The notes under the pieces are model-generated. The model did not search any database and was not told where the DNA came from. It saw nothing but the letters and a program-made list of their open reading frames with translations. From positions 1 to 64,000 of the forward strand of contig CAYHBD010000010.1 of NCBI GenBank assembly GCA_964354805.1: a stretch of 64,000 nucleotides of DNA, read 5' to 3'. Made by a program: the position numbers and the translations under genes. This document shows, one piece after another, positions 7,038-34,666 of the stretch. Positions within the stretch are counted from its first letter, which is position 1, and every line of letters begins with the position of its first letter. This DNA is from an uncultured archaeon (GTDB lineage Archaea > Iainarchaeota > Iainarchaeia > Iainarchaeales > GCA-2688035).

Positions 7038-7240
7038 AAAGCCTTTTTGCTCACGCAAAAAGCCTTGGGAAAAGAAGCAGTGCTGTTGCACTGCAAAGCC
7101 TTTTGCACTGCGGTGCAAAAGCCTTGGGAAAAAAGAGTTTTGCATCCGCAAAACAAAGCCTTTTTTGCTTTCAGCAAAAAAGCCTTGGGAAAAAGTGCCT
7201 GACGGCAGAGCCTTTTTTTTACGGAGCAAAAAAGCATTGG
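7038..7240. repeat. Array of REP/BIME-like palindromic units (AAGCC-TTTT stem-loop-AAAA-GCCTTGGGAAAA)
   Basis: Three to four units interleaved with small hairpins (GCAGTGC..GCACTGC; GTTTTGC..GCAAAAC); same units recur at 18.8, 20.1, 31.9 and 34.6 kb. Confidence 0.8.
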
Positions 7241-18573: not shown

Positions 18574-18610
18574 TTTCTCACATTGGTTTATTGACCTATT
18601 TAACAGCCAG

Positions 18611-18623
18611 TGCACGGGGGCGG
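18611..18623 (-). repeat. Duplicate of tRNA-Leu 3' end
   Basis: TGCACGGGGGCGG is identical at 18611-18623 and 18691-18703. Confidence 0.75.
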
Positions 18624-18690
18624 TTTCAACACGCCACTACGTAGGCGTGGTTGTGCCCGTTCGACCCAACAGGGCTTCTTCGAAGCCCTA

Positions 18691-18871
18691 TGCACGGGGG
18701 CGGGTTCGAACCGCCGAACGCACTAAGCGACAGGATTTCGCAAGCCCTCTCTTTGTTTTCTTTTTCCCAGGGCTTTTCTTGGCGAAGCCCTTTTTCTTTC
18801 CCAAGGCTTTCTTTTTTCAAAAAAGAAAGGCTTCTTGAGTCCTGCGGGTTTGACCGCTTCCCTACCCGTGC
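18691..18871 (-). tRNA. tRNA-Leu(CAA) with ~97-nt intron at 37/38 (18737-18833)
   Basis: Acceptor GCACGGG/CCCGTGC-A; anticodon stem CAGGA/TCCTG with CT-CAA-G; long variable arm; GGTTCGAACC T-loop; BHB-like junction with one mismatch. Confidence 0.9.
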
Positions 18872-18919
18872 ATTAAGATAATTTTAATAAGAAAAAGGAA
18901 TATTAAAAGCTTGCCCTTC

Positions 18920-19330
18920 TCAAAATTCGAGCAAATCCCCGACTTTTATCATCGGGAACCTGCCTTCCGCCCTGACAAAGATTGCACCGTGCTCTCCTTT
19001 CACCATGGCATTGGGGCTCTTGCTTCCTAACTGCAAATCAATGATGCGCAATTGCGTAGCCTGCACTTTTGTTTTCGCCTTTTTGCTTATTACACCGCTT
19101 GCAACAATGCCCTGCAGCATTAGGCTGTCCTGCACATGGAAAACCCCGGTAACCTGAAAGGCATTGCCCATCATTGGCGTTTCAGCAATTGTAACTATTT
19201 CGTCCTTTACCTTTTTCTTTTCTTTAAGCTCAACTTCCATTGCCTTGCGCTTGCTTGCCTCAGGAATGCACACTCCAAGGCTGCGCTTTTTATCCTTTTC
19301 AAAAAGGCGCTGCAGAATCTCCATAACCAA
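18920..19330 (-). CDS. EF-Tu domain II-like beta-barrel protein (Pbp11-like)
   Basis: FQVTGVF...LQGIVASG...KGEHGAIFV...IKVGDLLEF pattern. Confidence 0.55.
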   Translation of the reverse strand: MVMEILQRLFEKDKKRSLGVCIPEASKRKAMEVELKEKKKVKDEIVTIAETPMMGNAFQVTGVFHVQDSLMLQGIVASGVISKKAKTKVQATQLRIIDLQLGSKSPNAMVKGEHGAIFVRAEGRFPMIKVGDLLEF

Positions 19331-19342
19331 CCCTCTGCTCCC

Positions 19343-19430
19343 TTATATTATAGGTTATACTTAATCTCGCCCACATGAGGCTAAACAACTTCTCCTCTTC
19401 CCCAACCTTTATATTATAGGTTATACCTAA
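19343..19430. promoter_or_regulatory. 18-bp direct repeat in a divergent promoter region
   Basis: TTATATTATAGGTTATAC at 19343-19360 and 19409-19426. Confidence 0.55.
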
Positions 19431-19463
19431 ATGATTAAAAAATTGCCCATTCTTACTATTATC

Positions 19464-19949
19464 ATGAAACCGGCTGTTTACTGGAGAAGTGCCCTTGGCC
19501 TTTTCTGGGCATTCATGTTCTTCATTCTATTGTCACTTGTAATAGGCTTAACCTACTTGGAGAAGCTTGTCTTCTACCCTTATGCGATTTTTTTAAGCGC
19601 AATCCTTATTGTTTTCCTTGCTGCATTCGCATTATTCAAAAAAAGGTCAAAGGCAGGGCTTTACCTTTGCTTAATCCTCTCAGCACTTTTTGCATTAAAC
19701 CAGATTGCGACACTTTTCATTCTGTTAACCCAGCCATCTGAAATCCTGCCAACAGAGGTATTCAGCGCAGTTGCCAGCCTGCAGTCAACGCCCTTCCCGT
19801 TGATTGTTTCAGCCCTGCTTTTAATCTGGGCTCTGCTGCTCTGCATTGTCACCTGGAAGAGCAGGCCGTTGTTTGCGCCTGACATGCAAAAGGAACAAAT
19901 TGCATGGTTTGAACAGGTGCAAAAAACAGAGGCTTATTCCTTCAAATAA
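19464..19949 (+). CDS. Four-TM hypothetical membrane protein
   Basis: Four hydrophobic segments. Confidence 0.6.
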   Translation: MKPAVYWRSALGLFWAFMFFILLSLVIGLTYLEKLVFYPYAIFLSAILIVFLAAFALFKKRSKAGLYLCLILSALFALNQIATLFILLTQPSEILPTEVFSAVASLQSTPFPLIVSALLLIWALLLCIVTWKSRPLFAPDMQKEQIAWFEQVQKTEAYSFK

Positions 19950-19996
19950 CGGCTTTGCCGAAGCAAGTTTTATGCTCAATTTATTCTTTCTTTCCC

Positions 19997-20130
19997 CACA
20001 ATGTCAAGCATCAAAATATTTCTTTTTTGTTTCATTGCTTGGCATTGTGCCAAGGCTTTCTTTTCTAAAGAAAGGCTTGCCGAAGGCATTTTTTCCCAAG
20101 CCTTTTGCACCGTAGTGCAAAAGGCTTGCC
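19997..20130. repeat. MITE-like IR element plus REP-like units (inverted relative of the 7.04-7.35 kb cluster)
   Basis: CACAATGTCAAGCA...TGCTTGGCATTGTG (19997-20049), followed by the reverse complement of AAGCCTTTTGCACTACGGTGCAAAAGGCTTGGGAAAA. Confidence 0.75.
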
Positions 20131-20168
20131 GAAAGAATAAAATACAAGTTTAAACATAAAGTAAAGCA

Positions 20169-20615
20169 ATGAAAAAGGAAATTTTCTTAATTGTTTTTCT
20201 TTTTGGTGCTGTTGCTTTAAGCGGCTGCACTCAACCAGGGTCTGTTACTGTTTTCAAATACGTTTGCTTTGATGGCACGGTTGTGGAAAATCAATCTGAT
20301 TGCCCTGCATTGCCTGATGTGAATTGCGAGCTAAGCTGCCCTTGCTCATGCCCCACGCCTGTTTTGCCTGAGACAAGCCAGGAGGAATTCATTCAGGGCC
20401 AGATAGATAAAGCAAACTACTGCTCTGTAAAAGAGGACTGTGTTCTGGCTGAAAGCAAGTGCCCCTTCGGCTGCACTATTTTCGTCAACAAGAGCGAACT
20501 TGCCAGAATAAACAAAATAATCAGCGAATACAGGCAAGTATGCAATCTTTCCTGCACGCCCCTGAAATACTATAACTGCGATGAAAACAAGTGCGTTGAA
20601 ACAGACTGGGGTTAA
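20169..20615 (+). CDS. Cys-rich lipoprotein
   Basis: Lipobox ALSGC; many Cys (CFDG, CPFGC). Confidence 0.75.
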   Translation: MKKEIFLIVFLFGAVALSGCTQPGSVTVFKYVCFDGTVVENQSDCPALPDVNCELSCPCSCPTPVLPETSQEEFIQGQIDKANYCSVKEDCVLAESKCPFGCTIFVNKSELARINKIISEYRQVCNLSCTPLKYYNCDENKCVETDWG

Positions 20616-20671
20616 AGGGCTGGCAACTCGGGCGAAAGAATAAAATAGGGGTTTGGCGTATAATTAATTAG

Positions 20672-20860
20672 GTGAATGCTTTGTTTAGATTTTTCAGGAG
20701 AAGAAAACTAATTCCTGTCCCTGCTTCCGGCAACACTCCGGGTGACAGAAGAGTTAGACCACCGATAATGACCGGCGTTCATCCATCTGTGGGAAGGGTT
20801 TACTTTGACCGATTTCTTGAGTTGTGGAAGCCAAACAAAAGAAAATCAAAAGAGCAATAG
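20672..20860 (+). CDS. Small basic orphan protein
   Basis: 62 aa; FFRRRK at N-terminus; own promoter-like motif upstream. Confidence 0.4.
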   Translation: MNALFRFFRRRKLIPVPASGNTPGDRRVRPPIMTGVHPSVGRVYFDRFLELWKPNKRKSKEQ

Positions 20861-20898
20861 CTGGAATTTTGCCCGAATTATTCTTCCCCTTAATTTTT

Positions 20899-20909
20899 CG
20901 CAGGGGCTG
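20899..20909. repeat. att site (distal copy of tRNA-Ser 3' end)
   Basis: CGCAGGGGCTG equals 31781-31791. Confidence 0.85.
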
Positions 20910-21014
20910 TAAGGAAATGCTTACAGTTTAGTGCAGTTACCTTAGTGTAATATAATAACCATTCTTATTTAAATATATTCGCTTATTACCTTAATGTAAC
21001 ATTGAGGTGTTTTT

Positions 21015-21170
21015 GTGCCAAATCTACAGTTTTCAAAGGGCAGATGGAGCTTAACCATTCCTTTTGAAATGGTTGAATCAAAAGGCTGGCAGAAAGGCCA
21101 GCGCCTGCTATGCAATTTCAACGCCCAGGGCAACATTGAATTAAGCGAATTAAAGCCAAAAACAAAATAG
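21015..21170 (+). CDS. AbrB/MazE/SpoVT-like DNA-binding protein (51 aa)
   Basis: Manual translation MPNLQFSKGRWSLTIPFEMVESKGWQKGQRLLCNFNAQGNIEL...; GAGGTG RBS; not in the ORF track. Confidence 0.7.
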   Translation: MPNLQFSKGRWSLTIPFEMVESKGWQKGQRLLCNFNAQGNIELSELKPKTK

Positions 21171-21286
21171 GCCTGCTGCTCGTTTTCTGCCGTTGTAAAG
21201 CGCAGGTTTTTAAAGCTTTTTTTGAGGAAAAAGGTTTTTATAGTAGAAAAGCCTTTTTGTTACAAAACAAAGAAGGGAAAAAAAAG

Positions 21287-21733
21287 ATGCCTAAAGCACT
21301 GTTTTATATTGAGGGCAAAAACGTGCAGCATATTGGTTGCAGGCTAATTGTTACAAAACAATTAATCCACACTGGGCTCACTAAAGGCGGGGCATTCAAT
21401 TTGCCTGACGGCAGGGTTGAAATTGTTTTGGAAGGGAGCGAAGACCAATTAAAAAACGCCCACAACTATATTAAAGACAATTTGATTGAATGGATAAAGC
21501 AATCAGCAAACGAAAGGGAAGAACTAAAGCGATTGATTGGAAACCCAAAGCCTGATGTCAAAATCAGTGAATTAGAGTTTAACGATTCACTGCTTGTGCT
21601 TGACATTGGGTTATTCAGCCATTCATTAACCTTTGACCAAATATACAAGGGAATAGACGTTTACAAAGATTTAACAAAATCAATCCTGCTTCTTAATCAA
21701 ACACTAAAAAACAAAAACTCAGCCGGGAACTAA
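21287..21733 (+). CDS. Acylphosphatase-like protein with C-terminal extension
   Basis: GKNVQHIGCR (cf. GxVQGVGFR) and NLPDGRVEIVLEG. Confidence 0.75.
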   Translation: MPKALFYIEGKNVQHIGCRLIVTKQLIHTGLTKGGAFNLPDGRVEIVLEGSEDQLKNAHNYIKDNLIEWIKQSANEREELKRLIGNPKPDVKISELEFNDSLLVLDIGLFSHSLTFDQIYKGIDVYKDLTKSILLLNQTLKNKNSAGN

Positions 21734-22064
21734 AAGAAGGCACTATTATAGTGAAAAAAGAAAGAGTAGCCTTCCGCTGCTGGCACTGCTTTGAATAGCT
21801 GATTGTTTTTCCTTGCTTTGAAAGGAACTTGGCAATATCCCGAACAGAACCATTTTGGGGAGCAGAACCTTCTTTGCCCTTAACATGTTTGCCTGATTTA
21901 TAAGCACTGTAAAACTGTTTTACAGTGCCTGCTTTTGATTGCAGCCATGCTCTCGCTAAAACAATCGAGCCCTCTACATCGTGAAAGTCTGTGTCCCGCT
22001 GCTCCGGCAACAAATGCCTGCTGCTTGAATTTTATATAAAACTCTAAAAAAAGCAAAAGGAGGC

Positions 22065-22140
22065 GGGGCGGGAAAAAAAGAGAAAAAAACCCGCCCTGTT
22101 TTTTTTTCAAATAGCAGGCGTTGAAACGCCTGCTGCTTTT
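22065..22140. terminator. Paired GC-rich hairpins with T-tracts at the end of the element's minus-strand operon
   Basis: GGGCGGG...CCCGCCC followed by T-run; AGCAGGCGTT-GA-AACGCCTGCT (22113-22134). Confidence 0.45.
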
Positions 22141-22250
22141 TCTTTTTTTTCAAGCAATTGCTTTGTCTTTTCTATTTCTTCCATTTAAATGCACTGCTTG
22201 AAATAAGCCGGGAAAAAATTGAAACCCGTGTGGCGCATAACAAAACCCTT

Positions 22251-22616
22251 TCAGGCAATTTGTGTTTCAACCAGCTGCCTTGACCACATGAACAAAACCA
22301 AGACAACAACAAGGATTAAAATAATCCAGCCGAAAGAAAAAAAGAAGCCTACAACATCAAAGCTGGTGGCGAAGCTTTCCTGACTGGCTTGAACAACATC
22401 CTGCAGCTGTGCCTTTATGCCCGCATCCTCAATTGTTGAAAAGCTTTGCTCTGCATCAGCAATCAGCGACTGCCCTTGTGCCATGAATGAAATATTTATC
22501 AATTGGGTGAATGGCAAAAGCAGGGCAAACAAAAACAGCAGGAAAATGGAGAGCGAAACGAAAGCCATGAACAAGGAAACACTGCCCCTGCCGCCTAATT
22601 TTTTTATCTCAAACAT
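22251..22616 (-). CDS. Two-TM helical hairpin protein with prepilin-like N-terminus (candidate virion/pilin protein)
   Basis: KKLGGRG|SVSLF followed by a hydrophobic helix, amphipathic linker and second hydrophobic helix. Confidence 0.55.
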   Translation of the reverse strand: MFEIKKLGGRGSVSLFMAFVSLSIFLLFLFALLLPFTQLINISFMAQGQSLIADAEQSFSTIEDAGIKAQLQDVVQASQESFATSFDVVGFFFSFGWIILILVVVLVLFMWSRQLVETQIA

Positions 22617-22664
22617 TTGCCATCACACCAACACACATATTATGTGCCTTCCAATTAAAATTTT

Positions 22665-22892
22665 TTACGCTCCGATTTTTTTTTCAATTGCCACAATTTT
22701 TTCCAATGTAGTTTTTTTCATTTCACTCTCTGGCCATCGCTCAACTTGCGCTTTCAGCAAGCCCACTTCAATTTTCTGAAAGCCTGATATTGTTTTGCGC
22801 TCCTCGCTGCCCAGGTTCTTCTTCGCAGCTCGCTTTTGCAAGCGAACAAACTGATTAAGACAACTAAAAACGCTTTCAAAGTCCAAATACAT
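22665..22892 (-). CDS. Hypothetical protein (element)
   Basis: GGAGGTGG RBS before ATG at 22892. Confidence 0.55.
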   Translation of the reverse strand: MYLDFESVFSCLNQFVRLQKRAAKKNLGSEERKTISGFQKIEVGLLKAQVERWPESEMKKTTLEKIVAIEKKIGA

Positions 22893-22962
22893 CAAACCAC
22901 CTCCTTTTTCGTTCACTTTCCCGAGATAAACAATCTAAATTAAACACAACCCAACATATTCA

Positions 22963-23874
22963 TTACACTTTTAGCCGCCCTGTTGAAATCAGGGCATTTA
23001 ATGCTCGCTGCAAGTTCCTTGAAACAACTTCACCACAGGAGAAATGCGCTCTAATCAAACCCACGTCAGCATAAGGCTTTCCCCTTTTATCAATGCCCGT
23101 TAAGTCTTTAATCTGCCGAACGGCTTCCTCAAGCAATGGCTTGAAATCAATCTTTTCAATCGCCTTACCTTTCTCCCGCAGCAACTGCTCGTGCCACCTG
23201 GCAAGATTAACATCAATGTAATCAGCTTTCTTTTTCTCATAAGCGTCAACCAGCTCTTTTCTCGGCAGCGGAATAGATATTTTATCAATCCTTGAAACCT
23301 CGCCTTTCACATCCCTAACCCTGGGCTTTGGCATATACTGTTTCCCGCTCATAGCCGAAACAGTGCTCCAGTAAAACTGTGCAAAACTGCGCTTGCTGCG
23401 AAAATCAATGCTCTCAAACTTTGCAATGCCCGTTATGCCAACCTTGCGCACAACACTGTCAATTTGTGAAATCATGGGTGCACACATGAAAACAATAAAC
23501 CCTTTTGCCCTGTAGGTTGTAACTGTGAAATTCATCCGCTTGTTTTCCTTTGTCATCGCATTCCGGGCGCTCGCTGCCTTTTCGCTGCCAGCAATTTCAT
23601 CAAAAAGAATAACGCTGCCCCGCTTTAATTTTCCCTTTGAATCCCCGTTTCGCATAAGCCCAATAAAGTCTTCAACACTGAAAACAATGCGGTCGCTATT
23701 AAAGCCCGAATCCAAGTCTTGCCCAAAACGAATAGCTGCCGTGCTTTTGCCCGTGCCAGGCTTCCCAATAAACAAGAACGTGCAGTTTTGTTTTTGGCGA
23801 TAAATATCCCGCCAGACCTGGCGATAAATGAAATTTCTTTTGATTTTCAACGGCATTACCTGCGTCATACTCAT
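22963..23874 (-). CDS. P-loop ATPase (viral Zot/B251-like; candidate packaging or assembly ATPase)
   Basis: Walker A GKPGTGKS; Walker B VILFDE; YRAKG and IDSVVR segments; no TM helix. Confidence 0.75.
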   Translation of the reverse strand: MSMTQVMPLKIKRNFIYRQVWRDIYRQKQNCTFLFIGKPGTGKSTAAIRFGQDLDSGFNSDRIVFSVEDFIGLMRNGDSKGKLKRGSVILFDEIAGSEKAASARNAMTKENKRMNFTVTTYRAKGFIVFMCAPMISQIDSVVRKVGITGIAKFESIDFRSKRSFAQFYWSTVSAMSGKQYMPKPRVRDVKGEVSRIDKISIPLPRKELVDAYEKKKADYIDVNLARWHEQLLREKGKAIEKIDFKPLLEEAVRQIKDLTGIDKRGKPYADVGLIRAHFSCGEVVSRNLQRALNALISTGRLKV

Positions 23875-24344
23875 TCCTCAAAATCAAAGTTTTTGCTTTT
23901 CACCGGCATCAAATTTGCTGCTCCAAACTGGGAAATGAGCAAGTCTTGAAGCTCACTCAACAAATCAAGGTATTGGTCAACCCCGTCATTAAAAAAAAAC
24001 GTTTGCCCGTTTACCTGAACCTGTTCAAGCAGCCGCAGCCGTATTTTTGCCCCGTTTATTTCCAATACATATTTTTGGTGCATTTTTGTTTTCAGTTTTG
24101 CGGACTTTGTTTTGTAGTCTTCCGTTAAAAAAGAGTTCAGCATGCTCTCAATCGTTCTGATTGCAGAATAAGCTCCTCTTGCAACCGCAACCCGCCCGTC
24201 AAACGTTTTGCGCCTCGCTTGCGAAACAGAAACCAAAAAATTATAACGGTCAAGTTCCTGCAAAACCAAGTATTGCAGGTTTGTTCGTTCATTGCGAATG
24301 TCCTCCACATTCATGCTCGCCAGAAAGCCCGTTTCCTCACTCAT
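23871..24344 (-). CDS. Hypothetical protein (element)
   Basis: Start/stop overlaps with both neighbours. Confidence 0.65.
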   Translation of the reverse strand: MSEETGFLASMNVEDIRNERTNLQYLVLQELDRYNFLVSVSQARRKTFDGRVAVARGAYSAIRTIESMLNSFLTEDYKTKSAKLKTKMHQKYVLEINGAKIRLRLLEQVQVNGQTFFFNDGVDQYLDLLSELQDLLISQFGAANLMPVKSKNFDFEE

Positions 24345-24727
24345 TTAGTTTTCGCCTCCGCTTTTTCAATCAAGTCCGAAAAATCGCAGCCTTTTGGCTC
24401 GGACTTAAAAACCACTGCAAGCAACAGTTTGAGTTTAAAGTTTGCTGCCCGAACATTCCTAAATTTTTCCTCGCAATCTTGGTTTTGGCGAAAATCCAAA
24501 ACGGCCTGCTCAAAACCTTTTTCGTCAGGAATCAGGCCTCGGGCGAAAACAATAGCTTCAAGGTTGTCCACTGCTACGCTAAAATAAATCATGCCATCCT
24601 CAAACTTTCCGAGTTCTGCGCTTTTTGGCAAAATGTTCAACGCAGCCCACAAAGCCGCATCGGTGCATCGTTCCGCCAAATTCTTCCTGCTAAAACCTGA
24701 CCATTCGTTATCTTCCTGTTTTTTCAC
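24341..24727 (-). CDS. Hypothetical protein (element)
   Basis: GAGGTGA RBS; coupled to the downstream ORF. Confidence 0.65.
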   Translation of the reverse strand: MKKQEDNEWSGFSRKNLAERCTDAALWAALNILPKSAELGKFEDGMIYFSVAVDNLEAIVFARGLIPDEKGFEQAVLDFRQNQDCEEKFRNVRAANFKLKLLLAVVFKSEPKGCDFSDLIEKAEAKTK

Positions 24728-24732
24728 CTAAA

Positions 24733-24993
24733 TCACCTCATTGATTTTTTTTTATAAAAAAAAATTGGGCGCTTCATTACAACTCTCTGGCTTTCAAAAA
24801 AGTCACTACGCCAGCATTCAATCTTTGAAACAAAAAAACCCTGCGCCTGCAATTCCCGCAGCTCACTCTCGGTTTTAGGCACGGCCATCTCAAAGGCTGA
24901 CGGGTAAACCATCTGCGGCAGGCGGCGGGATGGAGTGAGCCGCCTGCCTTTTAACTTGGAGGTTTTTTTTCCACGAATTAAAATATGTTTCAT
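24733..24993 (-). CDS. Basic hypothetical protein (element)
   Basis: Start MKHILIRG at 24993 overlaps the upstream stop (ATGA); the longer ORF-track version is unlikely. Confidence 0.55.
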   Translation of the reverse strand: MKHILIRGKKTSKLKGRRLTPSRRLPQMVYPSAFEMAVPKTESELRELQAQGFFVSKIECWRSDFFESQRVVMKRPIFFYKKKSMR

Positions 24994-25169
24994 TTTGCAA
25001 CCCGCCCAGCAAATTTTCCATGTAAATAAAAAACATAAACCCCAAAAAGGAAAACAATTGCAAGCACAGCGAAAGCCAGCAGAATATTCAAAATGGAAAA
25101 AAGCAGGCCAATGCCACAGGCCGCAACAGCAAGCAGCAAGCAGGCAACAGCGAGCAAAAGTTTTTTCAT
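24990..25169 (-). CDS. Small hydrophobic protein (59 aa, two TM)
   Basis: Manual translation MKKLLLAVACLLLAVAACGIGLLFSILNILLAFAVLAIVFLFGVYVFYLHGKFAGRVAK; ATGA overlaps at both ends. Confidence 0.7.
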   Translation of the reverse strand: MKKLLLAVACLLLAVAACGIGLLFSILNILLAFAVLAIVFLFGVYVFYLHGKFAGRVAK

Positions 25170-25426
25170 TCAACCATCACCCACCACACGGTTGTAGAAT
25201 TTGAAACTTCAATTTTAACAAGTCCAGCGATACGCAATTCTTGCAAAGCAATTATTGTTTCGGTTTCCGAAAAACCGTTGTTTGGATTTCCATAAATCTC
25301 CCAAGCCAAAAAATGCTTATCGCTTGGTCGCGTTTCCGCTCTATTCCAATTCGGCATTTTCACGTTTTTGGCTTTTGGCAATTCAAGAATCTTTTTCAAC
25401 AAGAGTTGCTGTTGCATAGTGTTCAC
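25166..25426 (-). CDS. Small protein, possibly winged-helix
   Basis: C-terminal ALQELRIAGLVKIEV...VWWV resembles a wHTH recognition helix plus wing. Confidence 0.5.
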   Translation of the reverse strand: MNTMQQQLLLKKILELPKAKNVKMPNWNRAETRPSDKHFLAWEIYGNPNNGFSETETIIALQELRIAGLVKIEVSNSTTVWWVMVE

Positions 25427-25736
25427 CTTCCAAAAAACTTTGTTTTGACTCTAATTTTTGGCGTTTGGCTTCAAGCCAATTTTTTAGCTCGCTTTCCAAA
25501 CCCTGTAAGTATTCAGGGACTGCGGTCATGCGCCAAATTTCTTTTGCTGCCTCAAGGTCTTGTTCAAAAATTGTTTGGCGTTTTTGTTGCCTGGTGAGAA
25601 AAGCCGCGCACTTCAAAAACTGTTTCGTTTCCTTTTGCATTGCGCGGTCTAAAGCCAAGCGGGATTTGCCTGATATCCGAATGCCTAACTCTTTTATTAA
25701 CTCACTAACCGCTGCGCTTCGCAATAACTTGCTCAT
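25383..25736 (-). CDS. Histone-fold protein with C-terminal helical extension
   Basis: AAVSELIKELGIRISGKSRLAL...AAFLTRQQKRQTIFEQDLEAA aligns by eye with HMf-type RVS..A..AL...A..AGRKTIKAEDIELA. Confidence 0.8.
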   Translation of the reverse strand: MSKLLRSAAVSELIKELGIRISGKSRLALDRAMQKETKQFLKCAAFLTRQQKRQTIFEQDLEAAKEIWRMTAVPEYLQGLESELKNWLEAKRQKLESKQSFLEGEHYATATLVEKDS

Positions 25737-25942
25737 AAAAAAACCTCCTGAGATTCTATTACAATAGGCGCAATATCAGCCCTTTTTTTAAGCAAACCAA
25801 TGGATTGGAGCGCAAAATCAGCGCGCAATGTTGAAAAGAGGCAAAACCAAGCGCGCTGCCCTATAGCAAATGGCTTTTGAACACGTTCGAAAATGCGAAC
25901 CGGTTTTTTCTCATTGATTTTTGACTGCAAATCACTTTCCAT
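25733..25942 (-). CDS. Hypothetical protein (element)
   Basis: Overlaps neighbours; contains the GGAGGT RBS for the histone-fold gene. Confidence 0.5.
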   Translation of the reverse strand: MESDLQSKINEKKPVRIFERVQKPFAIGQRAWFCLFSTLRADFALQSIGLLKKRADIAPIVIESQEVFL

Positions 25943-26171
25943 TCAAAACACCAACCTGCTGCGTTTTTTTCAAAATATATCCTGTCGCATCAAAAGGGCT
26001 ATTTGGAATAAAGCAATGAGCGCACCGGTGCCCAAGCCCCCGGCCATGTTTGTGCAAACAATGGCAGAAATCGCACCAAAACTGCCAGCCGCCCAAAAAA
26101 TCCTGCCTGGGTTCAACCAAAACGATTGGAATGCCGTCTTTGTGGCCTAAAATAACAGTTTTTTCAGGCAT
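25932..26171 (-). CDS. Small Cys/His zinc-binding protein (phage-type)
   Basis: WCDFCHCLHKHG...GHRCAHC...SPF..TGYIL; start uncertain (26171 or 26237). Confidence 0.6.
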   Translation of the reverse strand: MPEKTVILGHKDGIPIVLVEPRQDFLGGWQFWCDFCHCLHKHGRGLGHRCAHCFIPNSPFDATGYILKKTQQVGVLNGK

Positions 26172-27756
26172 TTGCAACCACTCCCTCTCCGTTTTGTGTG
26201 GGCGGTCTGCCACTCTGGGCATTCTTACCCACGACATATTGCTCTGCCCTCTTTTTCTTCCGTTTTTTAGCCAAAACAGCCTGTTTTTCGATTGTTCCAA
26301 AATTTGTTACTCCCGATATGCGGTGCAATTCATGCAATTCATTTTCATTTGCATGATTTGCATTAATTGCATTATTTGTATCAACTGCATGAATTGCATT
26401 AATTTCTATTTCTTCCCATTTTGGTATTGAAAAAGTAAGAACATCTGGAAGGGGTATATAAATTGCGACATCTTTTTTGGATTCCTCAACATGGGTTTTG
26501 GTTTTTTCCAAAAAGCCAAGCTGAACCAATCGGTCAAGTGTATTTCGTAACCAGCGTTCTTCCCATCGAGAAAATCGTATATTTATGTTTTGTAGGGTTC
26601 CCCCATCTGGGAAGTATTTTATCAAAATTTCAATCAGTTCCTTTTCTTCTCTCGCAAGTGGAATCATCAAAGAATTGCTTGTTGTTTGCAATAAAGCAAT
26701 TCTTGCATTTCCATAATCTTCCGGAGTAGCAAGTATTTTTCCCTGCAAATCTTTTTGTCTTTGGTGTTGGTGCAAACAGGCGCTTCCTTTAATATAATCA
26801 AGGAAGCGGGAGAAAATTGTTCGTTGAATAACCTGGCAATTCCTTGATTTTTTTATCCAGTATTCAGCTAATGCGTGGGTTATTTTTTCTGCATATGGAA
26901 TAATCACTTCAATGAAATCAAGGCCGTAATAAAATCTTTTTGCCAATTCATTTTTTTCTTCTTGTTCTTGTCCTGCATCCTCACTCGCCTGTTTTAAATT
27001 TATTTGTAATGTTTGTTGTGAACTTTCATCCATGTACAAGAAAGGCAATCGCCTCAGTGCTTCATCTCCAGCTTTTACCTTTGCTGCGGTTGTGAGAAAT
27101 GTTGGTTTGCCTTTAATACTCAAATCTTTTGCTGCTCCCTCATGCACGATTGTAACTGTATTTATTTTGTTTGGGTTTGCGCTCATCAGAGTTTTGACTG
27201 ATTCGGAATTTAAAATTTTGCTGTTCACATCTTCGAGATAAACAAAATAGTTATTCCAATCTCGGTTCTGATGGCGAGCCAACGCATAATCCAACGCTTT
27301 TTCGCTTACTCTTCGCCTTGCAAAAATGTTTTCCTCAGGAAAAATATTAAGCGTTTCACTTACTACAAAATCTTTTCCTGTTCCTGGGGCAGCATTAGCA
27401 CAGAGGTTGCTACTTGTGCTTCTTTTATTTTTTACTTTTGCAAGACAACAAATAAGAATAATTGTTTTAATGGAATTTGTTTCGCCGACAACACTTTTTT
27501 GCACTTCGATTGTGAGGTTATTTAAAAGTTGTGGCTGGGATAAATATGCTATTAGTTCTGGGTTGGAGTCAATTTGTATTGCCTCTTCTTTTTTTCCTTG
27601 CATTTCACGTTCCAACTCAGCGAGTTCAACAACCTCTTTTTTTACTAAAACCATTGCAATTTTGTAATCAAGCTTTACAATACTACCTTTCGGTTGTTCT
27701 CCAGTGAGTTTAGTGTAATCTTCAAATTTCAAAATTTTGCACAGCACTTTGCTCAT
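26164..27756 (-). CDS. Helicase-like AAA+ ATPase (SF3/MCM-related) with C-terminal wHTH
   Basis: VVGE, Walker A APGTGKD, Walker B VYLED, ALRR; directly downstream of the primase. Confidence 0.75.
   Translation of the reverse strand: MSKVLCKILKFEDYTKLTGEQPKGSIVKLDYKIAMVLVKKEVVELAELEREMQGKKEEAIQIDSNPELIAYLSQPQLLNNLTIEVQKSVVGETNSIKTIILICCLAKVKNKRSTSSNLCANAAPGTGKDFVVSETLNIFPEENIFARRRVSEKALDYALARHQNRDWNNYFVYLEDVNSKILNSESVKTLMSANPNKINTVTIVHEGAAKDLSIKGKPTFLTTAAKVKAGDEALRRLPFLYMDESSQQTLQINLKQASEDAGQEQEEKNELAKRFYYGLDFIEVIIPYAEKITHALAEYWIKKSRNCQVIQRTIFSRFLDYIKGSACLHQHQRQKDLQGKILATPEDYGNARIALLQTTSNSLMIPLAREEKELIEILIKYFPDGGTLQNINIRFSRWEERWLRNTLDRLVQLGFLEKTKTHVEESKKDVAIYIPLPDVLTFSIPKWEEIEINAIHAVDTNNAINANHANENELHELHRISGVTNFGTIEKQAVLAKKRKKKRAEQYVVGKNAQSGRPPTQNGEGVVANA
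26324..26403. repeat. Degenerate 9-bp tandem repeat (TGCAT-T/G-AAT-like), about 9 units
   Basis: TGCAATTCA TGCAATTCA ... TGCATGATT TGCATTAAT TGCATTATT TGTATCAAC TGCATGAAT TGCATTAAT. Confidence 0.7.
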
Positions 27757-28604
27757 TTTCTCGCCTCCAGCAAACACAAATCACAAATAGAGCGCTTTCC
27801 AATCGAGCCAGCAAATTTCTGAATCTGCTTGCAATTAAATTCCGGCTTATACTGGCCCCAACACTTCAACCGAGCAACTGTTAAGTTTTCTTGTTGCTGG
27901 GTTTCAACAAGCTTTTGCAGCAAAGTTTCATTGCCTCTAAAATATGCAAAGGCGTTGGGAGAAAAGCGGCTATTCTGTTGTTTGTTGTTTAAATCAATTT
28001 TGTTGTTTAAGCCGTATTCAAAAAAAGGGCAGTGTTTTTGATTATCTATTCTCCCTGAGGGAGTCTTATACATAAATTTTTTTTCGTTCTCTTTTTTTAC
28101 CGCTTCAACAATTTCCTGCGGCAAAACATTCGTTCCCTTTGCTTCTCGAATCAGTATTTTTAACCTGCCTGTTTTGCGATGTGGTGTTCCTGCAATATGC
28201 CACATCCGTTTGTTTCCAAAGTTTGCCTCATCGAAACTTTTGGAAAGTTCTTCATTCGTCAGCCATAGTGTCAGTGCTTTTTTTACCATTGGGCGAATCT
28301 CTGGCTCAATTAATTCAAGCCCCTGCCATTCCATTTCAAGATGGAAGCTTTTATTTCCGCCATCATAATATTGGTATGCAATACCTTTCATATCGAGCAG
28401 CGAGCAAACAAAATTCATGACCTGTTTGTTTGTTTCTTTTTGTTCAAAATCTGTTTCAAGGCAAAGTTGTTCTGGCCTGATTAATTCGTAATTTGGTTCA
28501 CTTTTCATTTCTTTTTTCCATTGTTCAGGCGTTCTCCACTTGCTCCACCCATCTTTGTATTTTTTTAGGTTGCCTTCAGCAACAAGGTAAAGAAATTCAC
28601 TCAT
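27753..28604 (-). CDS. Archaeo-eukaryotic primase (AEP) with C-terminal PriL-like Cys cluster
   Basis: Motif I LETD, motif II GGNKSFH, motif III D..RMWHIAGTPHRKTG; C-terminal HCPF...FNC...ICDLC. Confidence 0.75.
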   Translation of the reverse strand: MSEFLYLVAEGNLKKYKDGWSKWRTPEQWKKEMKSEPNYELIRPEQLCLETDFEQKETNKQVMNFVCSLLDMKGIAYQYYDGGNKSFHLEMEWQGLELIEPEIRPMVKKALTLWLTNEELSKSFDEANFGNKRMWHIAGTPHRKTGRLKILIREAKGTNVLPQEIVEAVKKENEKKFMYKTPSGRIDNQKHCPFFEYGLNNKIDLNNKQQNSRFSPNAFAYFRGNETLLQKLVETQQQENLTVARLKCWGQYKPEFNCKQIQKFAGSIGKRSICDLCLLEARK

Positions 28605-28701
28605 CAAAATTCCCCCGGCAAACTTCGCATTCCCCGCATAATTCGGGCATAAAAAGGCAAAAGCGAGGACACCAAATAGCACGAAAAATTTTAAGGCTCA
28701 T
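28597..28701 (-). CDS. Tiny Cys-rich ORF (34 aa)
   Basis: MSLKIFRAIWCPRFCLFMPELCGECEVCRGNFDE; GGAGG RBS; fills the operon gap. Confidence 0.4.
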   Translation of the reverse strand: MSLKIFRAIWCPRFCLFMPELCGECEVCRGNFDE

Positions 28702-28873
28702 GTCTGCTTCCTCCATTTTTGTTTTCAATCGCAGACAGCCTGCTGGCTACATCCATTAACCTTTCTTCAGCCTGTCGCAGCCTGGAGTTTAAGGCTTCAA
28801 TTTCTTCCTGCTGTCGTTCAAAAGAGCGGGCAGGGTGGCTGGTGCAAAAGCCTGTGTTGAGGCTGCTACGCAT
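28691..28873 (-). CDS. Small coiled-coil protein
   Basis: Heptad-like IEALNSRLRQAEERLMDVASRLSAIE. Confidence 0.5.
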   Translation of the reverse strand: MRSSLNTGFCTSHPARSFERQQEEIEALNSRLRQAEERLMDVASRLSAIENKNGGSRHEP

Positions 28874-29054
28874 GAGGCAACACCTCAACTTTTTGAATCA
28901 GGGAAAAAGCAAAAACTTGGGGCAATCCAAACTTATCAATCATGCCGAGCTTATCATCCGTAACAGAAATTATTTTGCCTGAATACACCCTCTGTTGTCC
29001 GCAATCAAAAACAACAACCTTGCAAAATTTTCCAAGAAAAAGTTTCCAATCCAT
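28866..29054 (-). CDS. Sm/LSm-like small beta-barrel protein
   Basis: FLGKFCKVVV...YSGKIISV...LGMID...FSLIQKVE; GGTGAGG RBS (alternative start 29120). Confidence 0.6.
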   Translation of the reverse strand: MDWKLFLGKFCKVVVFDCGQQRVYSGKIISVTDDKLGMIDKFGLPQVFAFSLIQKVEVLPHA

Positions 29055-29116
29055 TTCCTCACCTTTTTTATTTTTTTTCTCGCCTTCGCAGCTCGGCGCA
29101 AACCGCTTGAAAAAAT

Positions 29117-29254
29117 TCATTCGGCATTTTTTTCAGCCTCCAGCGCAGAATGGAGCAGATGCAGCAGCAAGGCCGTGCGTGTGTTGAATTGTTGTTTTTT
29201 TGCGTCAATGCGCCCAAGTAATTCAGCTGGGCAGTTGAATTGAACCAAAGGCAT
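29117..29254 (-). CDS. Ribbon-helix-helix (CopG-like) protein, 45 aa
   Basis: Manual translation MPLVQFNCPAELLGRIDAKKQQFNTRTALLLHLLHSALEAEKNAE; AGGTGA RBS; first gene of the operon. Confidence 0.65.
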   Translation of the reverse strand: MPLVQFNCPAELLGRIDAKKQQFNTRTALLLHLLHSALEAEKNAE

Positions 29255-29414
29255 TATTTTGTCACCTGAATGTAATGGTGCGGTTGGAATTTATAAATGT
29301 TTTTCTTTTTTTTACTACTTTTTTTTGTGGTAGGTATTGCTTTTTCTACTACTAAAATAAGGTTTTAATGGGAAAGCCATAGTTTTATAAAGAGAAACCC
29401 CTATTATTTGTAGT

Positions 29415-30401
29415 ATGCCTACTACTGAAAGAAAAGAGCTGGAAGACCTTGCAAATTGCTTGGGAACACCAAAAACAAGCAGGGTTTTGCAGTTAATTGA
29501 GCTTTCAAACAATGGGCTGCTGATGCAAGACCTCTTTTCCCTGCTTAACGCACCAAAAGACAAGGGCACCCAGGATGCTTTAAAATTGCTGCAAGAAAGT
29601 GGTCTTATTGAAAAGCGAAAAGGCACAAACGTAAAAACAATCAGGGCAACATGGCAGCAAGAGCGCAACAAACTGCCTGCGCTGATCGAAATAAATATTG
29701 ATGCAGGCCTGCGTTTTGGCTCGAGGTTTTTTTGCAAGCAAAACCCGGTTGCGCTTTTCTTTGAAAAAATAATAAACAAAAATGGGTTGAGCAAAGAACA
29801 GCAAGCGCTTTCTCCTTGCCTTGATGCAATTGGAAAAGAGATTGCGGCGAGATGGGAATGGCAAAAGCTGGCTGTTGATTTTAACACAGAACTACTGCCT
29901 GCTTTTGCTCAAAACTTTGAAAGCATTGGCAAAGAATTGGGAAATGCGTCTTTAAACAAAATATTAATAGCTAAAAAGGGCGCTGCAGAAGGTTTGGAAA
30001 TGCTTAATCAAAAAACGATTGAGGTAATGGAAGAAATGAAGAAGGAAAAAAAAGCAGGCCGTTTGGCTTTTGTTGCAAGCCTGAAAGAAGAAAAAACGCT
30101 TTCCACACATTTGGATTATGTTTCACATATGCTGCAGCGCTTGCTTGTTGAAGAATTTATTCAGCACTACACCCGCTTTTATGAGTATGTTGCAAAAGAG
30201 CAAGCGCCGGCAATTGATTTGGATAAAATAAATTTTATTGTTTCCCTGCTGCAAGAGGTTGAATCACGCCTTTCAAAAAACGCCCTTGTTTTTGAGATTG
30301 TTTCCCGCTTGCAAAACTTCAACAACCTTTTAAGCGTTGCAATGGAGCAAAGGAAAACAATGGTGCTTTTGGAAAATAAGAAAGTGGCAGAAGGCAATTA
30401 G
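29415..30401 (+). CDS. Winged-helix (ArsR-like N-terminus) regulator with helical C-terminal domain
   Basis: LGTPKTSRVLQLI...ALKLLQESGLIEKRK; divergent from the RHH gene. Confidence 0.6.
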   Translation: MPTTERKELEDLANCLGTPKTSRVLQLIELSNNGLLMQDLFSLLNAPKDKGTQDALKLLQESGLIEKRKGTNVKTIRATWQQERNKLPALIEINIDAGLRFGSRFFCKQNPVALFFEKIINKNGLSKEQQALSPCLDAIGKEIAARWEWQKLAVDFNTELLPAFAQNFESIGKELGNASLNKILIAKKGAAEGLEMLNQKTIEVMEEMKKEKKAGRLAFVASLKEEKTLSTHLDYVSHMLQRLLVEEFIQHYTRFYEYVAKEQAPAIDLDKINFIVSLLQEVESRLSKNALVFEIVSRLQNFNNLLSVAMEQRKTMVLLENKKVAEGN

Positions 30402-31699
30402 CCGTTTTCTGCCAGTATTTTTTTATTCATCCCCGTTTTCTGCGCCATTTTTACCATGAATCCCAAAACTTCTTTTTGCATTGCCGGGTTTTTGAATGCC
30501 AATTGCATTGTTTCAATCAGCAGGTTGTTTTCTTTGCTTTCTTTTGCCAGCACGTTGTCCAATCCGAGTGTTGCTCCGCATTGCTCGCAAAATCCATTGC
30601 TTTCTGTGCTGCTGCAAATCGGGCATTCTTTTGGCATCATGCAATTGCCTGCGTTCAGTTCAAAGTATGGCTTCTCAAAGTCCACCGGCTTTATATGCGT
30701 ATAATTCAGGCTAATCCTTTTGCTTTTGCTCCACCCAAACCAAGCATACTTTATATCCTCGCCCCAGCCGCTGCATCTGCTGGCCATCATGTGCCTGAAA
30801 ACGCTGGTTGCCTTTCTTTCAGGCAATTCAACGCCGCCTGCTGCAAAGGCTCGCAGAACCAGCTGTCGTGCAGCAACATAGCTTAGCCTGTTGCCAAAGC
30901 GGTCAGGGAACAATGGTGCTTCTTGGTTATCGTGTTGGTAATTCTGCAGCCATTTTGTAATGTATGGCTTGCAGAGATAGCCGATAACCGTTCTCGGTTT
31001 GGTTTTTGAAACAGGAAAGTGCAGCAGCAGATAGTTTTTTCCCTCTGCCTGCTTTATGTCGCTTACGTTCATGCCAACTGCTTCGGTTATTCGGCATCCA
31101 GCATCATTCATAATTGAAAGCAGTGCCTGGTTGCGGAAATAGAGCGGGCTGTTTGCCCTGACCAGCTTTGATGCCCTTATTGTTTGCCCTTCTCTTTGTG
31201 CCTTGCTTACCAATGCGTGTTTTTCTATTATGCCCTTAATCTGTTCCTGTGTGGGCAGTTCAATTAAATCTTCTACATCAGGCCGCTTGGGCATCTCAAT
31301 GTTGTCAATTGCCTCAGGGTATTTGCCCTTTTTCATGTTGAAATGGTATCGCAAAAACTTTTTTGTCAGCCAAAAGTATTTCTCTACGCTGCCCCAGCTT
31401 AATGAACCTTTATCCATTCTGTCAAGCATGGAATTGAACCAAGCTTCGTTATCTGCTGCTGTTATGGCTTCAACGTTTTGCTTGTTGTGCCACAGCAGGT
31501 AATGATAGCTCACATCCAAGTCTTTGCATTGGGTGTTAATTCTTGCACCCTTGTCTTTTGCGTTGTATCTCACAAGAGCTTGCTTGCATTCTTCGCTCAA
31601 TTCGCTGTCCTGAATTTTTTGCAGCAGGCCTGCTGTTTCTTTTCGCCTATTATGAATATCAATCTCTTCTTTACCATTTGAATTAGGCTTCGCAGCCAT
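30398..31699 (-). CDS. int: Tyrosine recombinase/integrase with C-terminal zinc ribbon
   Basis: GCRITEA (R), SKTK (K), SVFRH (HxxR with S for H), FGWS, NYTH (Y); CPIC...FCEQCG; adjacent to tRNA-Ser att. Confidence 0.9.
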   Translation of the reverse strand: MAAKPNSNGKEEIDIHNRRKETAGLLQKIQDSELSEECKQALVRYNAKDKGARINTQCKDLDVSYHYLLWHNKQNVEAITAADNEAWFNSMLDRMDKGSLSWGSVEKYFWLTKKFLRYHFNMKKGKYPEAIDNIEMPKRPDVEDLIELPTQEQIKGIIEKHALVSKAQREGQTIRASKLVRANSPLYFRNQALLSIMNDAGCRITEAVGMNVSDIKQAEGKNYLLLHFPVSKTKPRTVIGYLCKPYITKWLQNYQHDNQEAPLFPDRFGNRLSYVAARQLVLRAFAAGGVELPERKATSVFRHMMASRCSGWGEDIKYAWFGWSKSKRISLNYTHIKPVDFEKPYFELNAGNCMMPKECPICSSTESNGFCEQCGATLGLDNVLAKESKENNLLIETMQLAFKNPAMQKEVLGFMVKMAQKTGMNKKILAENG

Positions 31700-31780
31700 T
31701 CGCAATCACCTCACTTTAGGGCTGCATTACTACACCGCAACCCTTAAAAAAGGCAACTGCGAATGAACTGCGAACACTGA

Positions 31781-31996
31781 CGCAGGGGCTGGGATTTGAA
31801 CCCAGGCTCCCTTTCGAGAACGAGCTCGCCGCAATTTTCGCTTGAAAAAGAAACCAATTTTCTTTTACTGAATCTTTTCTTTTTCAAAAAGAAAAGGCTT
31901 GTTTTGCAAAGCAAAACCCCTTTTCCCCAGGCTTTTTTGCGGAAGCAAAAAAGGCTGTTAGCAGGCTCGCGCGTTAAACCACTCCGCCACCCCTGC
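31781..31996 (-). tRNA. tRNA-Ser(GCT) with ~132-nt intron at 37/38 (31827-31958)
   Basis: Acceptor GCAGGGG/CCCCTGC-G; anticodon stem CGAGC/GCTCG with CT-GCT-A; long variable arm; GTTCAAAT T-loop; central helix CUGC/GCGG. Confidence 0.9.
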
Positions 31997-33536: not shown

Positions 33537-34616
33537 TTGAAGAGTCTGATTGAAAATGCAATGGACAAGTCCACTGGAAAAGTGGATGAGGATAAAATCG
33601 AGGAATTTGGAACTCCAAAGATAATGGTTGTTGGAGTCGGCGGAGCAGGCTGCAACGCGGTTAACAGGCTTGCAAACATGGGAATTTCAGGCGCACAGCT
33701 GGTCGGAGTGAACACTGACAAGCAGCACCTTGCATTGATCAACGACGAGTTGACAAAAATCCTGATCGGAAAAAGCGTTACAAGGGGCCTGGGTGCAGGT
33801 GGCTATCCGGAGATTGGGGCAAAGGCAGCAGAGGTCAGCAGGAATTCATTGGAGGAAGTGCTGAGCGATGTTGACATGCTTTTTATTTCAGCCGGAATGG
33901 GCGGAGGCACTGGAACAGGAGCAGCTCCAATAATTGCGGAGATTGCAAAAGAGCAGGGCGCAATCGTTATTGGAATTGTGACATACCCGTTCGCTCTGGA
34001 AAAAGCAAGATTGATCAAAGCAGAAGATGGAATCGAGGCACTGAGGCAGGTTACTGACACAGTGGTTGTAATAGACAACAACAGGCTGGTTGAACTGGTT
34101 CCAAATCTGCCAATCCAGGACGCATTCAAGGTTGCGGATGAAGTCACAGCAAGAACAGTCAGGGGAATAACTGAAACAATCACGCAGCCAAGCCTGATTA
34201 ACCTGGACTTTGCTGATGTAAGGGCAGTAATGTGCAACAAGGGCCTGAGCGTTATCGCTGTCGGGGAAAGCAAGAGCGTTGACAGGGTGAACGAGGTAGT
34301 TGAAGACACTTTGAAGAACGCTTTGCTTGATGTCGACATTGGCGGTGCAACAGGCGCAATGATCCACATTACAGGCGGACCAGACCTGACTCTTGGAGAA
34401 GCAAACGCTGTAGGGGAAATGCTGACCGACAGGATTGACCCGAAAGCACAGGTAATCTGGGGCGCAAGGGTTGACCCAACATTCGAGAACAAGATAGAGG
34501 TAATAACAATCTTCACAGGAGTCACCTCCCCATACATTAAAGGGCCAAATCCAATCCCGAGCTCGAGCTATACACCGGCATCAAAAAGCGATTTGGGAAT
34601 AGATTATTTAAGATAA
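33537..34616 (+). CDS. ftsZ: Cell division protein FtsZ
   Basis: GVGGAGCNA, GMGGGTGTG, INLDFADV. Confidence 0.97.
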   Translation: MKSLIENAMDKSTGKVDEDKIEEFGTPKIMVVGVGGAGCNAVNRLANMGISGAQLVGVNTDKQHLALINDELTKILIGKSVTRGLGAGGYPEIGAKAAEVSRNSLEEVLSDVDMLFISAGMGGGTGTGAAPIIAEIAKEQGAIVIGIVTYPFALEKARLIKAEDGIEALRQVTDTVVVIDNNRLVELVPNLPIQDAFKVADEVTARTVRGITETITQPSLINLDFADVRAVMCNKGLSVIAVGESKSVDRVNEVVEDTLKNALLDVDIGGATGAMIHITGGPDLTLGEANAVGEMLTDRIDPKAQVIWGARVDPTFENKIEVITIFTGVTSPYIKGPNPIPSSSYTPASKSDLGIDYLR

Positions 34617-34666
34617 GCCTTTTTTGCTTCCGCAAAAAAGCCTTGGGAAAAAGGCCTTTGGGAAAA
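34616..34666. repeat. REP-like unit between convergent genes
   Basis: AGCCTTTTTTGCTTCCGCAAAAAAGCCTTGGGAAAA, one mismatch to the tRNA-Ser intron copy. Confidence 0.8.

What the first reader, a model, noticed from the sequence alone, without database searches (positions are those of the whole stretch)
18737..31958. REP/BIME-like palindromic repeats occupy tRNA introns
Seen: the introns of tRNA-Leu (18737-18833) and tRNA-Ser (31827-31958) are built from the same AAGCC-[T-stem/loop/A-stem]-GCCTTGGGAAAA modules found intergenically at 7038-7240, 20050-20130 and 34616-34666. The Ser intron unit AGCCTTTTTTGCTTCCGCAAAAAAGCCTGGGGAAAA differs by one base from the copy after ftsZ. It is followed by the same GTTTTGC..GCAAAAC mini-hairpin seen at 7137-7154. 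Inference: either a non-autonomous repeat uses BHB introns as a safe harbour, or excised/circularised intron RNA seeds the intergenic copies. I know of no description of this link.
Basis: partly seen in the sequence, partly recalled or inferred. Interest (0 to 1): 0.8.

Follow-up and report, generated by a model that had tools for sequence, protein, structure and literature searches.

The report
Triplex-type repeat starts archaeal tRNA introns
In this tiny archaeon (Iainarchaeota), a roughly 40-base DNA repeat shaped like a three-stranded helix is scattered between genes and also forms the first bases of 17 of 24 tRNA introns, which relatives often lack entirely, so it is a concrete candidate for how archaeal tRNA introns arise.

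Summary
Observation confirmed exactly. Both introns (18737-18833, 31827-31958) are position-37/38 introns with a splice helix in the right register, and each starts with the repeat. The genome holds about 129 units (5-7 in controls); 17 of 24 canonical tRNA introns begin with one, about 25-fold enriched.

It is not a REP: no GTAG/CGTC tag, same-direction arrays, no flanked RAYT. It is a pyrimidine/purine hairpin plus a third purine tract that mirrors the stem (149 of 157 units), the class II intrastrand-triplex design of E. coli BoxC/PIT.

Orthologous Leu-CAA genes either lack an intron (11) or have one that starts with a unit (12). The ftsZ copy is missing at that site in 16 of 17 relatives. 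At tRNA ends the unit's head abuts the acceptor stem on either strand (38 vs 1), favouring DNA-level insertion over seeding by intron RNA; no reverse transcriptase was found in 23 family genomes. No mobilising enzyme was found; triplex formation and splicing are untested. This scan already noted the family in at least 17 genomes and elsewhere in this one; I found no paper describing it.

The parts
18691..18871 (-). tRNA-Leu(CAA) gene, interrupted at 37/38
   Evidence: ARAGORN with introns; orthologues
18737..18833 (-). 97-nt intron; 3 of 4 central-helix pairs and a 7-bp outer helix in BHB register
18791..18833 (-). Triplex-type unit starting at intron nt 1: TTTC-type hairpin, 8-nt spacer, 9-nt mirror purine tail
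18760..18790 (-). Second, partial module (spacer and tail of the GCCCTGGG subfamily)
   Evidence: sequence
18739..18742 (-). Intron tetramer that pairs with tRNA positions 32-35 (BHB central helix)
31781..31996 (-). tRNA-Ser(GCT) gene, interrupted at 37/38
31827..31958 (-). 132-nt intron; 4 of 4 central-helix pairs, no contiguous outer helix (relaxed motif)
31921..31956 (-). Unit 1 of the Ser intron (T6 stem), one mismatch to the ftsZ copy
31901..31917 (-). Mini-hairpin linker module, also at 7137-7154
31858..31900 (-). Unit 2 of the Ser intron: TTTTC-type hairpin with 9-nt mirror tail
31829..31832 (-). Intron tetramer that pairs with positions 32-35
7040..7240 (+). Intergenic array: three full units, one variant and linker hairpins, all in the same orientation
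20046..20126 (-). Intergenic pair of units
34615..34652 (+). Unit overlapping the ftsZ stop codon, in front of the hairpin/T-tract terminator; absent at this site in 16 of 17 readable relatives
   Evidence: (loose ends at 34614/5 and 34652/3)

Best explanation
The unit is a small non-autonomous DNA repeat of Iainarchaeota: head (A plus 4 nt ending in C), T-rich arm, loop, A-rich arm, 8-nt spacer, then a purine tail that mirrors the A-rich arm. SHOWN: three-tract covariation, patchy copy number, empty orthologous sites, head-first polarity at tRNA boundaries, and introns in splice register. INFERRED: (1) single-stranded DNA folds into an intrastrand triplex that an unknown protein or template-switching step recognises; (2) the unit's head is joined at unpaired positions beside helices, such as the 3' foot of the tRNA acceptor stem on either strand, the anticodon loop, or stop-codon/terminator edges; (3) an insertion at 37/38 survives only if its last bases pair with tRNA positions 32-35 so that EndA removes it, which makes it a new intron that then collects more modules and is copied between tRNA genes of the same genome. 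The mobilising enzyme is not identified.
For: Mirror rule: tail A-run before G equals the outer T-run in 149/157 units (permuted mean 72.5, max 94); free-offset test 81 mirror, 31 tie, 0 direct. About 19 units in 1,509 intron nt vs 0.8 expected. Leu-CAA 12/12 introns unit-first and 11 intronless; Ser-GCT 8/9 unit-first and 10 intronless, with both states within one genus. ftsZ site empty in 16/17 relatives, a different subfamily inserted at the same stop in G015. Head-flush 24 downstream-sense + 14 upstream-antisense vs 1 tail-flush. No strand bias away from tRNAs, 35:27. Central helix at least 3 of 4 pairs in 24/24 introns. G016 Leu and Ser introns share nearly the same first 55 nt.
Against: No enzyme gene bracketed by units in G000 or the fetched loci; Y1 HUH, DUF559 and RT do not track the repeat. 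No tree was built, so intron gain versus loss is not polarised. The acceptor-stem-foot rule does not itself explain the 37/38 site. Within-genome likeness is clear in G016 only, not in G000 or G009. Kin and pattern-fetched loci are not independent samples.
Confidence: 0.55

Rival explanations
1. Intron-first: the unit evolved as the outer helix of a tRNA intron; whole introns are copied between tRNA genes by DNA recombination or conversion (as proposed for Thermoproteales) and intergenic copies are spill-over.
For: Short unit-free introns (Arg-TCT, Gln-CTG, Gln-TTG) are small CTTT...AAAG-like hairpins resembling the core. G016 Leu and Ser introns are near-identical at the 5' end. Precedent in PMC4090602.
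Against: About 85% of G000 units lie outside introns (94 intergenic, 15 coding, 20 intronic). In the copies inspected I saw no exon or splice-helix remnants. It does not explain head-flush copies at both tRNA termini or the mirror tail.
Confidence: 0.2
2. Functional host element: the unit is kept by selection as an RNA signal (U-tract terminator behind tRNAs, processing aid, or, when transcribed from the other strand, a U-U-A triple helix) and spreads as a by-product.
For: Strict sense orientation inside tRNAs, 54:1, and fixed position at intron start and tRNA ends. The most perfect mirror units are concentrated at tRNAs.
Against: Congeners with few units have intronless Leu-CAA and Ser-GCT genes (G004, G018). 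Orientation is random in spacers and coding regions. Purine-motif triplexes do not form in RNA (PMC4666352). A terminator inside an intron would be harmful (inference).
Confidence: 0.15
3. RNA seeding: excised linear or circular intron RNA is re-ligated or reverse-transcribed and reinserted.
For: The unit head coincides with the intron 5' end and lies 0-3 nt behind tRNA 3' ends, both RNA cleavage sites.
Against: No RVT_1 in 23 family genomes or in G037/G038, which carry unit-led introns. At tRNA 5' ends the observed orientation (14 antisense head-flush, 0 sense tail-flush) is the opposite of what RNA ligation to the leader predicts.
Confidence: 0.08
4. Chance A/T hairpins or an assembly artefact.
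For: A/T runs are common in this genome; folding z-scores of single units are modest, -0.7 to -1.8.
Against: 129 vs 5-7 in controls; reversed-pattern control about 0 across 215 genomes; independent contigs and relatives show the same structure.
Confidence: 0.01

Closest known systems
BoxC / PIT / TM-ECO class II intrastrand-triplex repeats of E. coli and other bacteria (Holder et al. 2015, PMC4666352)
   Same: Order 5' pyrimidine tract, purine tract, 3' mirror purine tract; dispersed, multi-copy, no gene-orientation bias, no established mobilising enzyme.
   Different: A/T-rich rather than G/C-rich, archaeal, fixed 8-nt spacer with its own head pairing, forms tRNA introns and abuts tRNA ends (the paper's text has no occurrence of 'tRNA'); triplex not shown physically here; no sequence homology.
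Transposed tRNA introns of Thermoproteales (Fujishima et al. 2010, as summarised in PMC4090602)
   Same: One intron sequence family across many isotypes, constrained by the BHB motif, mechanism unknown, presumed DNA-level.
   Different: Here the family is mostly outside tRNAs (spacers, coding regions, tRNA flanks), is modular, only its 5' part is shared, and it has triplex geometry.
REP/BIME with RAYT (Nunvar et al. 2010, PMC2817692; GTAG/CGTC-tagged repeats, PMC3733652)
   Same: 30-45 nt imperfect hairpin, over 100 copies, mosaic arrays, often at stop codons, lineage-specific copy number.
   Different: No GTAG/CGTC tag, arrays in the same orientation, no Y1 gene flanked by inverted units, extra mirror tail.
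Canonical archaeal 37/38 BHB tRNA introns (EndA/RtcB; PMC5829648)
   Same: Position 37/38, central helix in register, endA present.
   Different: Outer helix often short or absent (relaxed motif) although only one single-domain endA was found; intron body is a dispersed repeat.

Membership tests
Canonical 37/38 BHB tRNA intron | Insert between tRNA positions 37 and 38 | tested here: met
   intronless orthologues join exactly at this point
Canonical 37/38 BHB tRNA intron | 4-bp central helix in register with 3-nt bulges | tested here: met
   Ser 4/4, Leu 3/4; genome-wide 17 of 24 at 4/4 and 7 at 3/4, G-U allowed
Canonical 37/38 BHB tRNA intron | Outer helix h' closing the intron side (strict motif) | tested here: inconclusive
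   7 bp in Leu-CAA, 0 contiguous in Ser-GCT, 2 or fewer in many others
Canonical 37/38 BHB tRNA intron | Splicing endonuclease encoded | tested here: met
   one endA, TIGR00324 above cut-off
Canonical 37/38 BHB tRNA intron | Removal shown in RNA | not testable with these tools
   no RNA holder listed
Class II intrastrand-triplex repeat (PIT/BoxC/TM design) | Pyrimidine - purine - mirror purine order with covarying tracts | tested here: met
Class II intrastrand-triplex repeat (PIT/BoxC/TM design) | Over-represented and dispersed relative to scrambled controls | tested here: met
Class II intrastrand-triplex repeat (PIT/BoxC/TM design) | G/C-rich TM-ECO consensus sequence | tested here: not met
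   tracts are T/A runs with single C/G interruptions; works like it, not a sequence member
Class II intrastrand-triplex repeat (PIT/BoxC/TM design) | Triplex formed by the oligonucleotide | not testable with these tools
   needs DMS/CD/UV/NMR
REP/BIME-RAYT | Y1 HUH (rayt) gene flanked by inverted repeats of the family | tested here: not met
   two G000 tnpA genes and 28 Y1 loci of relatives are not bracketed
REP/BIME-RAYT | Alternating orientation in composite arrays | tested here: not met
   arrays are mostly same-strand, e.g. 7040/7097/7157
REP/BIME-RAYT | GTAG or CGTC terminal tag | tested here: not met
   heads are AGCC/CAGC/CACC types; only position -1 (A) carries information upstream
REP/BIME-RAYT | Short imperfect palindrome at high copy number, extragenic | tested here: met
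Retro-element / RT-seeded repeat | Reverse transcriptase in carriers | tested here: not met
   0 of 23 family genomes (61-93% complete); none in G037, G038; divergent or viral RT not excluded

The most novel reading that the evidence does not exclude
An undescribed structure-guided insertion system in DPANN archaea: a triplex-folding ssDNA module is joined head-first beside nucleic-acid helices without a fixed target sequence by an enzyme outside the Y1 HUH, DUF559 and RT families, and is the direct source of new tRNA introns, that is, an intron-generating element for BHB introns.
Probability: 0.3. Interest if true: 0.88.

Novelty: new variant of a known kind. Interest (0 to 1): 0.68.

Why it matters
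How archaeal tRNA introns are gained is open: a 2026 census of Asgard archaea tested copying, mobile elements and reverse transcription and found no general route (10.64898/2026.10.13.758758), and the Thermoproteales mechanism is unknown (PMC4090602). Here there is a named donor sequence, filled and empty orthologous sites within one genus, and a polarity rule, so the question becomes testable with strain comparisons and in vitro splicing. It also gives natural covariation evidence that intrastrand-triplex geometry is maintained, which bears on the unexplained BoxC/PIT repeats. Practically, these introns hide tRNAs from default annotation (0 found in this window).

Tried and rejected
Default ARAGORN and Rfam found no tRNA in the window; intron-aware ARAGORN did. 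RAYT/HUH: G000's two Y1 genes have their own unrelated hairpin ends, which look IS605-like to me from memory; units near Y1 genes in G012 and G017 belong to a neighbouring gene's upstream gap and a tRNA-Arg intron. DUF559: none in G000, 1 of 22 family genomes, not flanked. RT: none in the family. Genes bracketed by units look like housekeeping or surface proteins from their N-termini, not checked against Pfam. Two viral-contig scans gave no match. No RNA holder listed. Tail as an alternative Watson-Crick partner (direct repeat): rejected, 0 vs 81. Fixed tetranucleotide target as in IS605: not seen. No att duplicate of the tRNA-Ser 3' end of 14 nt or more in the window. Literature: no paper holds REP + archaea + tRNA intron; the Iainarchaeota + tRNA + intron search listed two papers whose titles and abstracts are unrelated; the library lacks most subscription papers. 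No species tree was built.
Full report
1. Observation. The window is contig C10 of a 1.38-Mb, 88.5%-complete genome whose repeat-sharing relatives are titled Iainarchaeum/ainarchaeum. Intron-aware ARAGORN finds tRNA-Leu(CAA) and tRNA-Ser(GCT) on the minus strand. The Ser-intron 36-mer and the copy at the ftsZ stop differ by one base, with no match in 100 shuffles (ftsZ). The other intergenic copies are there. Genome-wide there are 129 units against 5-7 in order-5 Markov controls. Contigs from independent metagenomes cover 18382-18733 and 18800-19054, and relatives have the same architecture, so this is not a chimera.

2. Anatomy. A unit is: A, four head bases ending in C, a T-rich arm, a variable loop, the complementary A-rich arm, an 8-nt spacer starting with G, and a purine tail. 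Head and spacer covary (AGCC with GCCT or GGCT, CAGC with GCTG, CATC with GATG). The tail mirrors the A-rich arm. With units chosen without looking at the tail, a T3-C arm gives an A3-G tail in 65 of 68 and a T4-C arm an A4-G tail in 81 of 85; overall 149 of 157 against a permuted mean of 72.5. With free offsets, mirror beats direct repeat 81 to 0 with 31 ties. Copies are related by descent, so these counts overstate independence, but the rule holds across subfamilies and doubly interrupted arms. This is the class II intrastrand-triplex order defined for BoxC/PIT/TM-ECO (PMC4666352). Triplex formation is inferred, not shown; that paper states purine-motif triplexes do not form in RNA, so the geometry points to DNA or to the opposite strand.

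3. Link to tRNA. Seventeen of 24 canonical introns start with a unit within 0-3 nt of the 5' splice site (16 plus Pro-GGG). About 19 units (20 raw hits) lie in 1,509 intron nt against 0.8 expected from the non-coding share. All 24 introns pair positions 32-35 with their own -6 to -3 bases (17 at 4/4, 7 at 3/4), so each 3' end is fitted to its host; the outer helix is often weak. One single-domain endA was found; PMC5829648 reports alpha4-type enzymes with an extra loop in DPANN lineages that have many disrupted tRNAs. I did not check that loop. Ten G000 tRNAs have a unit flush behind the 3' end and two have one flush before the 5' end on the opposite strand. Pooled over 297 distinct tRNA genes: head-flush downstream-sense 24, head-flush upstream-antisense 14, tail-flush 1; inside 54 sense, 1 antisense. 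Those loci were partly fetched by unit patterns, which enriches units but not polarity. Away from tRNAs there is no strand bias (35:27 between co-directional genes, 9:6 in coding regions, automatic gene calls).

4. Relatives. Strict copy number runs from 0 to 112 within one genus, and a second pattern hits 47 of 215 phylum genomes. Leu-CAA: 12 genes have an intron and all start with a unit; 11 have none. Ser-GCT: 8 unit-first, 1 unit-free intron, 10 intronless. Both states occur within genus g5. In G016 the Leu and Ser introns share almost the same first 55 nt, more than either resembles an orthologue; G000 and G009 do not show this. After ftsZ, 16 of 17 readable relatives lack a unit at the stop; G015 has a different subfamily there, and G017 and G019 have one behind the terminator. 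The unit therefore behaves as an insertion. Gain versus loss of introns is not polarised, as no tree was built.

5. Enzyme. G000's two Y1 HUH genes are not flanked by units. Across relatives Y1 presence does not track the repeat and no Y1 locus is bracketed. DUF559 is absent from G000 and found in 1 of 22 family genomes. No RT was found in the family, nor in G037 and G038 (97% and 99% complete), which carry unit-led introns. No nuclease-like gene bracketed by units turned up, and viral contigs gave no match.

6. Mechanism. Most likely (0.55): a non-autonomous DNA repeat whose single strand folds into a triplex is joined head-first at unpaired sites beside helices. The acceptor stem is palindromic, so its 3' foot exists on both strands, which predicts exactly the two orientations seen. 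RNA ligation would predict the opposite orientation at the 5' end. Insertions at 37/38 persist when their last bases allow EndA cleavage and so become introns, later gaining modules and being copied between tRNA genes. Rivals: intron-first copying (0.2), a selected RNA signal (0.15), RNA/RT seeding (0.08), artefact (0.01).

7. Comparison and novelty. It works like BoxC/PIT in design and like Thermoproteales intron transposition in effect. It fails three defining REP/BIME-RAYT features (and the PMC3733652 abstract). I found no paper describing it, and a 2026 Asgard census leaves intron arrival open. This scan has noted the family before, in at least 17 genomes and on other contigs of this one; my triplex reading was written down before consulting those notes, and they are not independent evidence. 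Verdict: real, new variant of a known kind, interest 0.68.

Noticed in passing
window:21200-31705: About 10-kb island just downstream of tRNA-Ser(GCT): tyrosine integrase at 30398-31705(-), weak primase-like and clamp-loader/DnaA-like ATPase hits. Leu-CAA and Ser-GCT lie only 1.4-8 kb apart in relatives versus 13 kb here. Probable integrated element; no att duplicate found.
   Followed up: partly
window:18611-18631: Imperfect duplicate of the last ~20 nt of tRNA-Leu(CAA), about 60 nt downstream of it, enclosing two hairpins (fold z -2.6).
   Followed up: partly
window:7240-7345 and 20001-20050: A second, longer A/T-rich repeat module attached to units whose tail is replaced by a short hairpin; the same hairpin tail recurs on C8, C16 and C30.
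   Followed up: no
G000 C25:7609-7644(-), C28:55333-55368(-): Units just upstream of tRNA-Pro(CGG) and tRNA-Cys on the opposite strand; the transcript would read U-tract, U-tract, A-tract right before the tRNA, the order of the MALAT1-type RNA triple helix (resemblance from memory, untested).
   Followed up: no
G000 C8, C16, C22, C30, C42, C44: About 15 units fall inside predicted coding regions in either orientation; earlier scan notes report in-frame copies in IleRS, Dus and pilins.
   Followed up: no
G000 C30:27106, C9:80936, C45:30, C18:1231: tRNAs with introns at non-canonical positions (Arg-CCT appears to have two introns), although only one single-domain endA was found.
   Followed up: no
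L050 (G037 tRNA-Ser GCT): A unit whose spacer has grown to about 70 nt by inserted hairpins while the distant tail still mirrors the arm.
   Followed up: no
L062, L104, L111, L140: Records titled Falkowbacteria or Chloroflexi carry units at coordinates matching family members G013, G020 and G021, so those titles are probably mislabelled archaeal genomes.
   Followed up: partly
L001:572-1015, L002:1268-1804: Two solo IS200-like tnpA genes with their own hairpin ends, unrelated to the repeat.
   Followed up: yes
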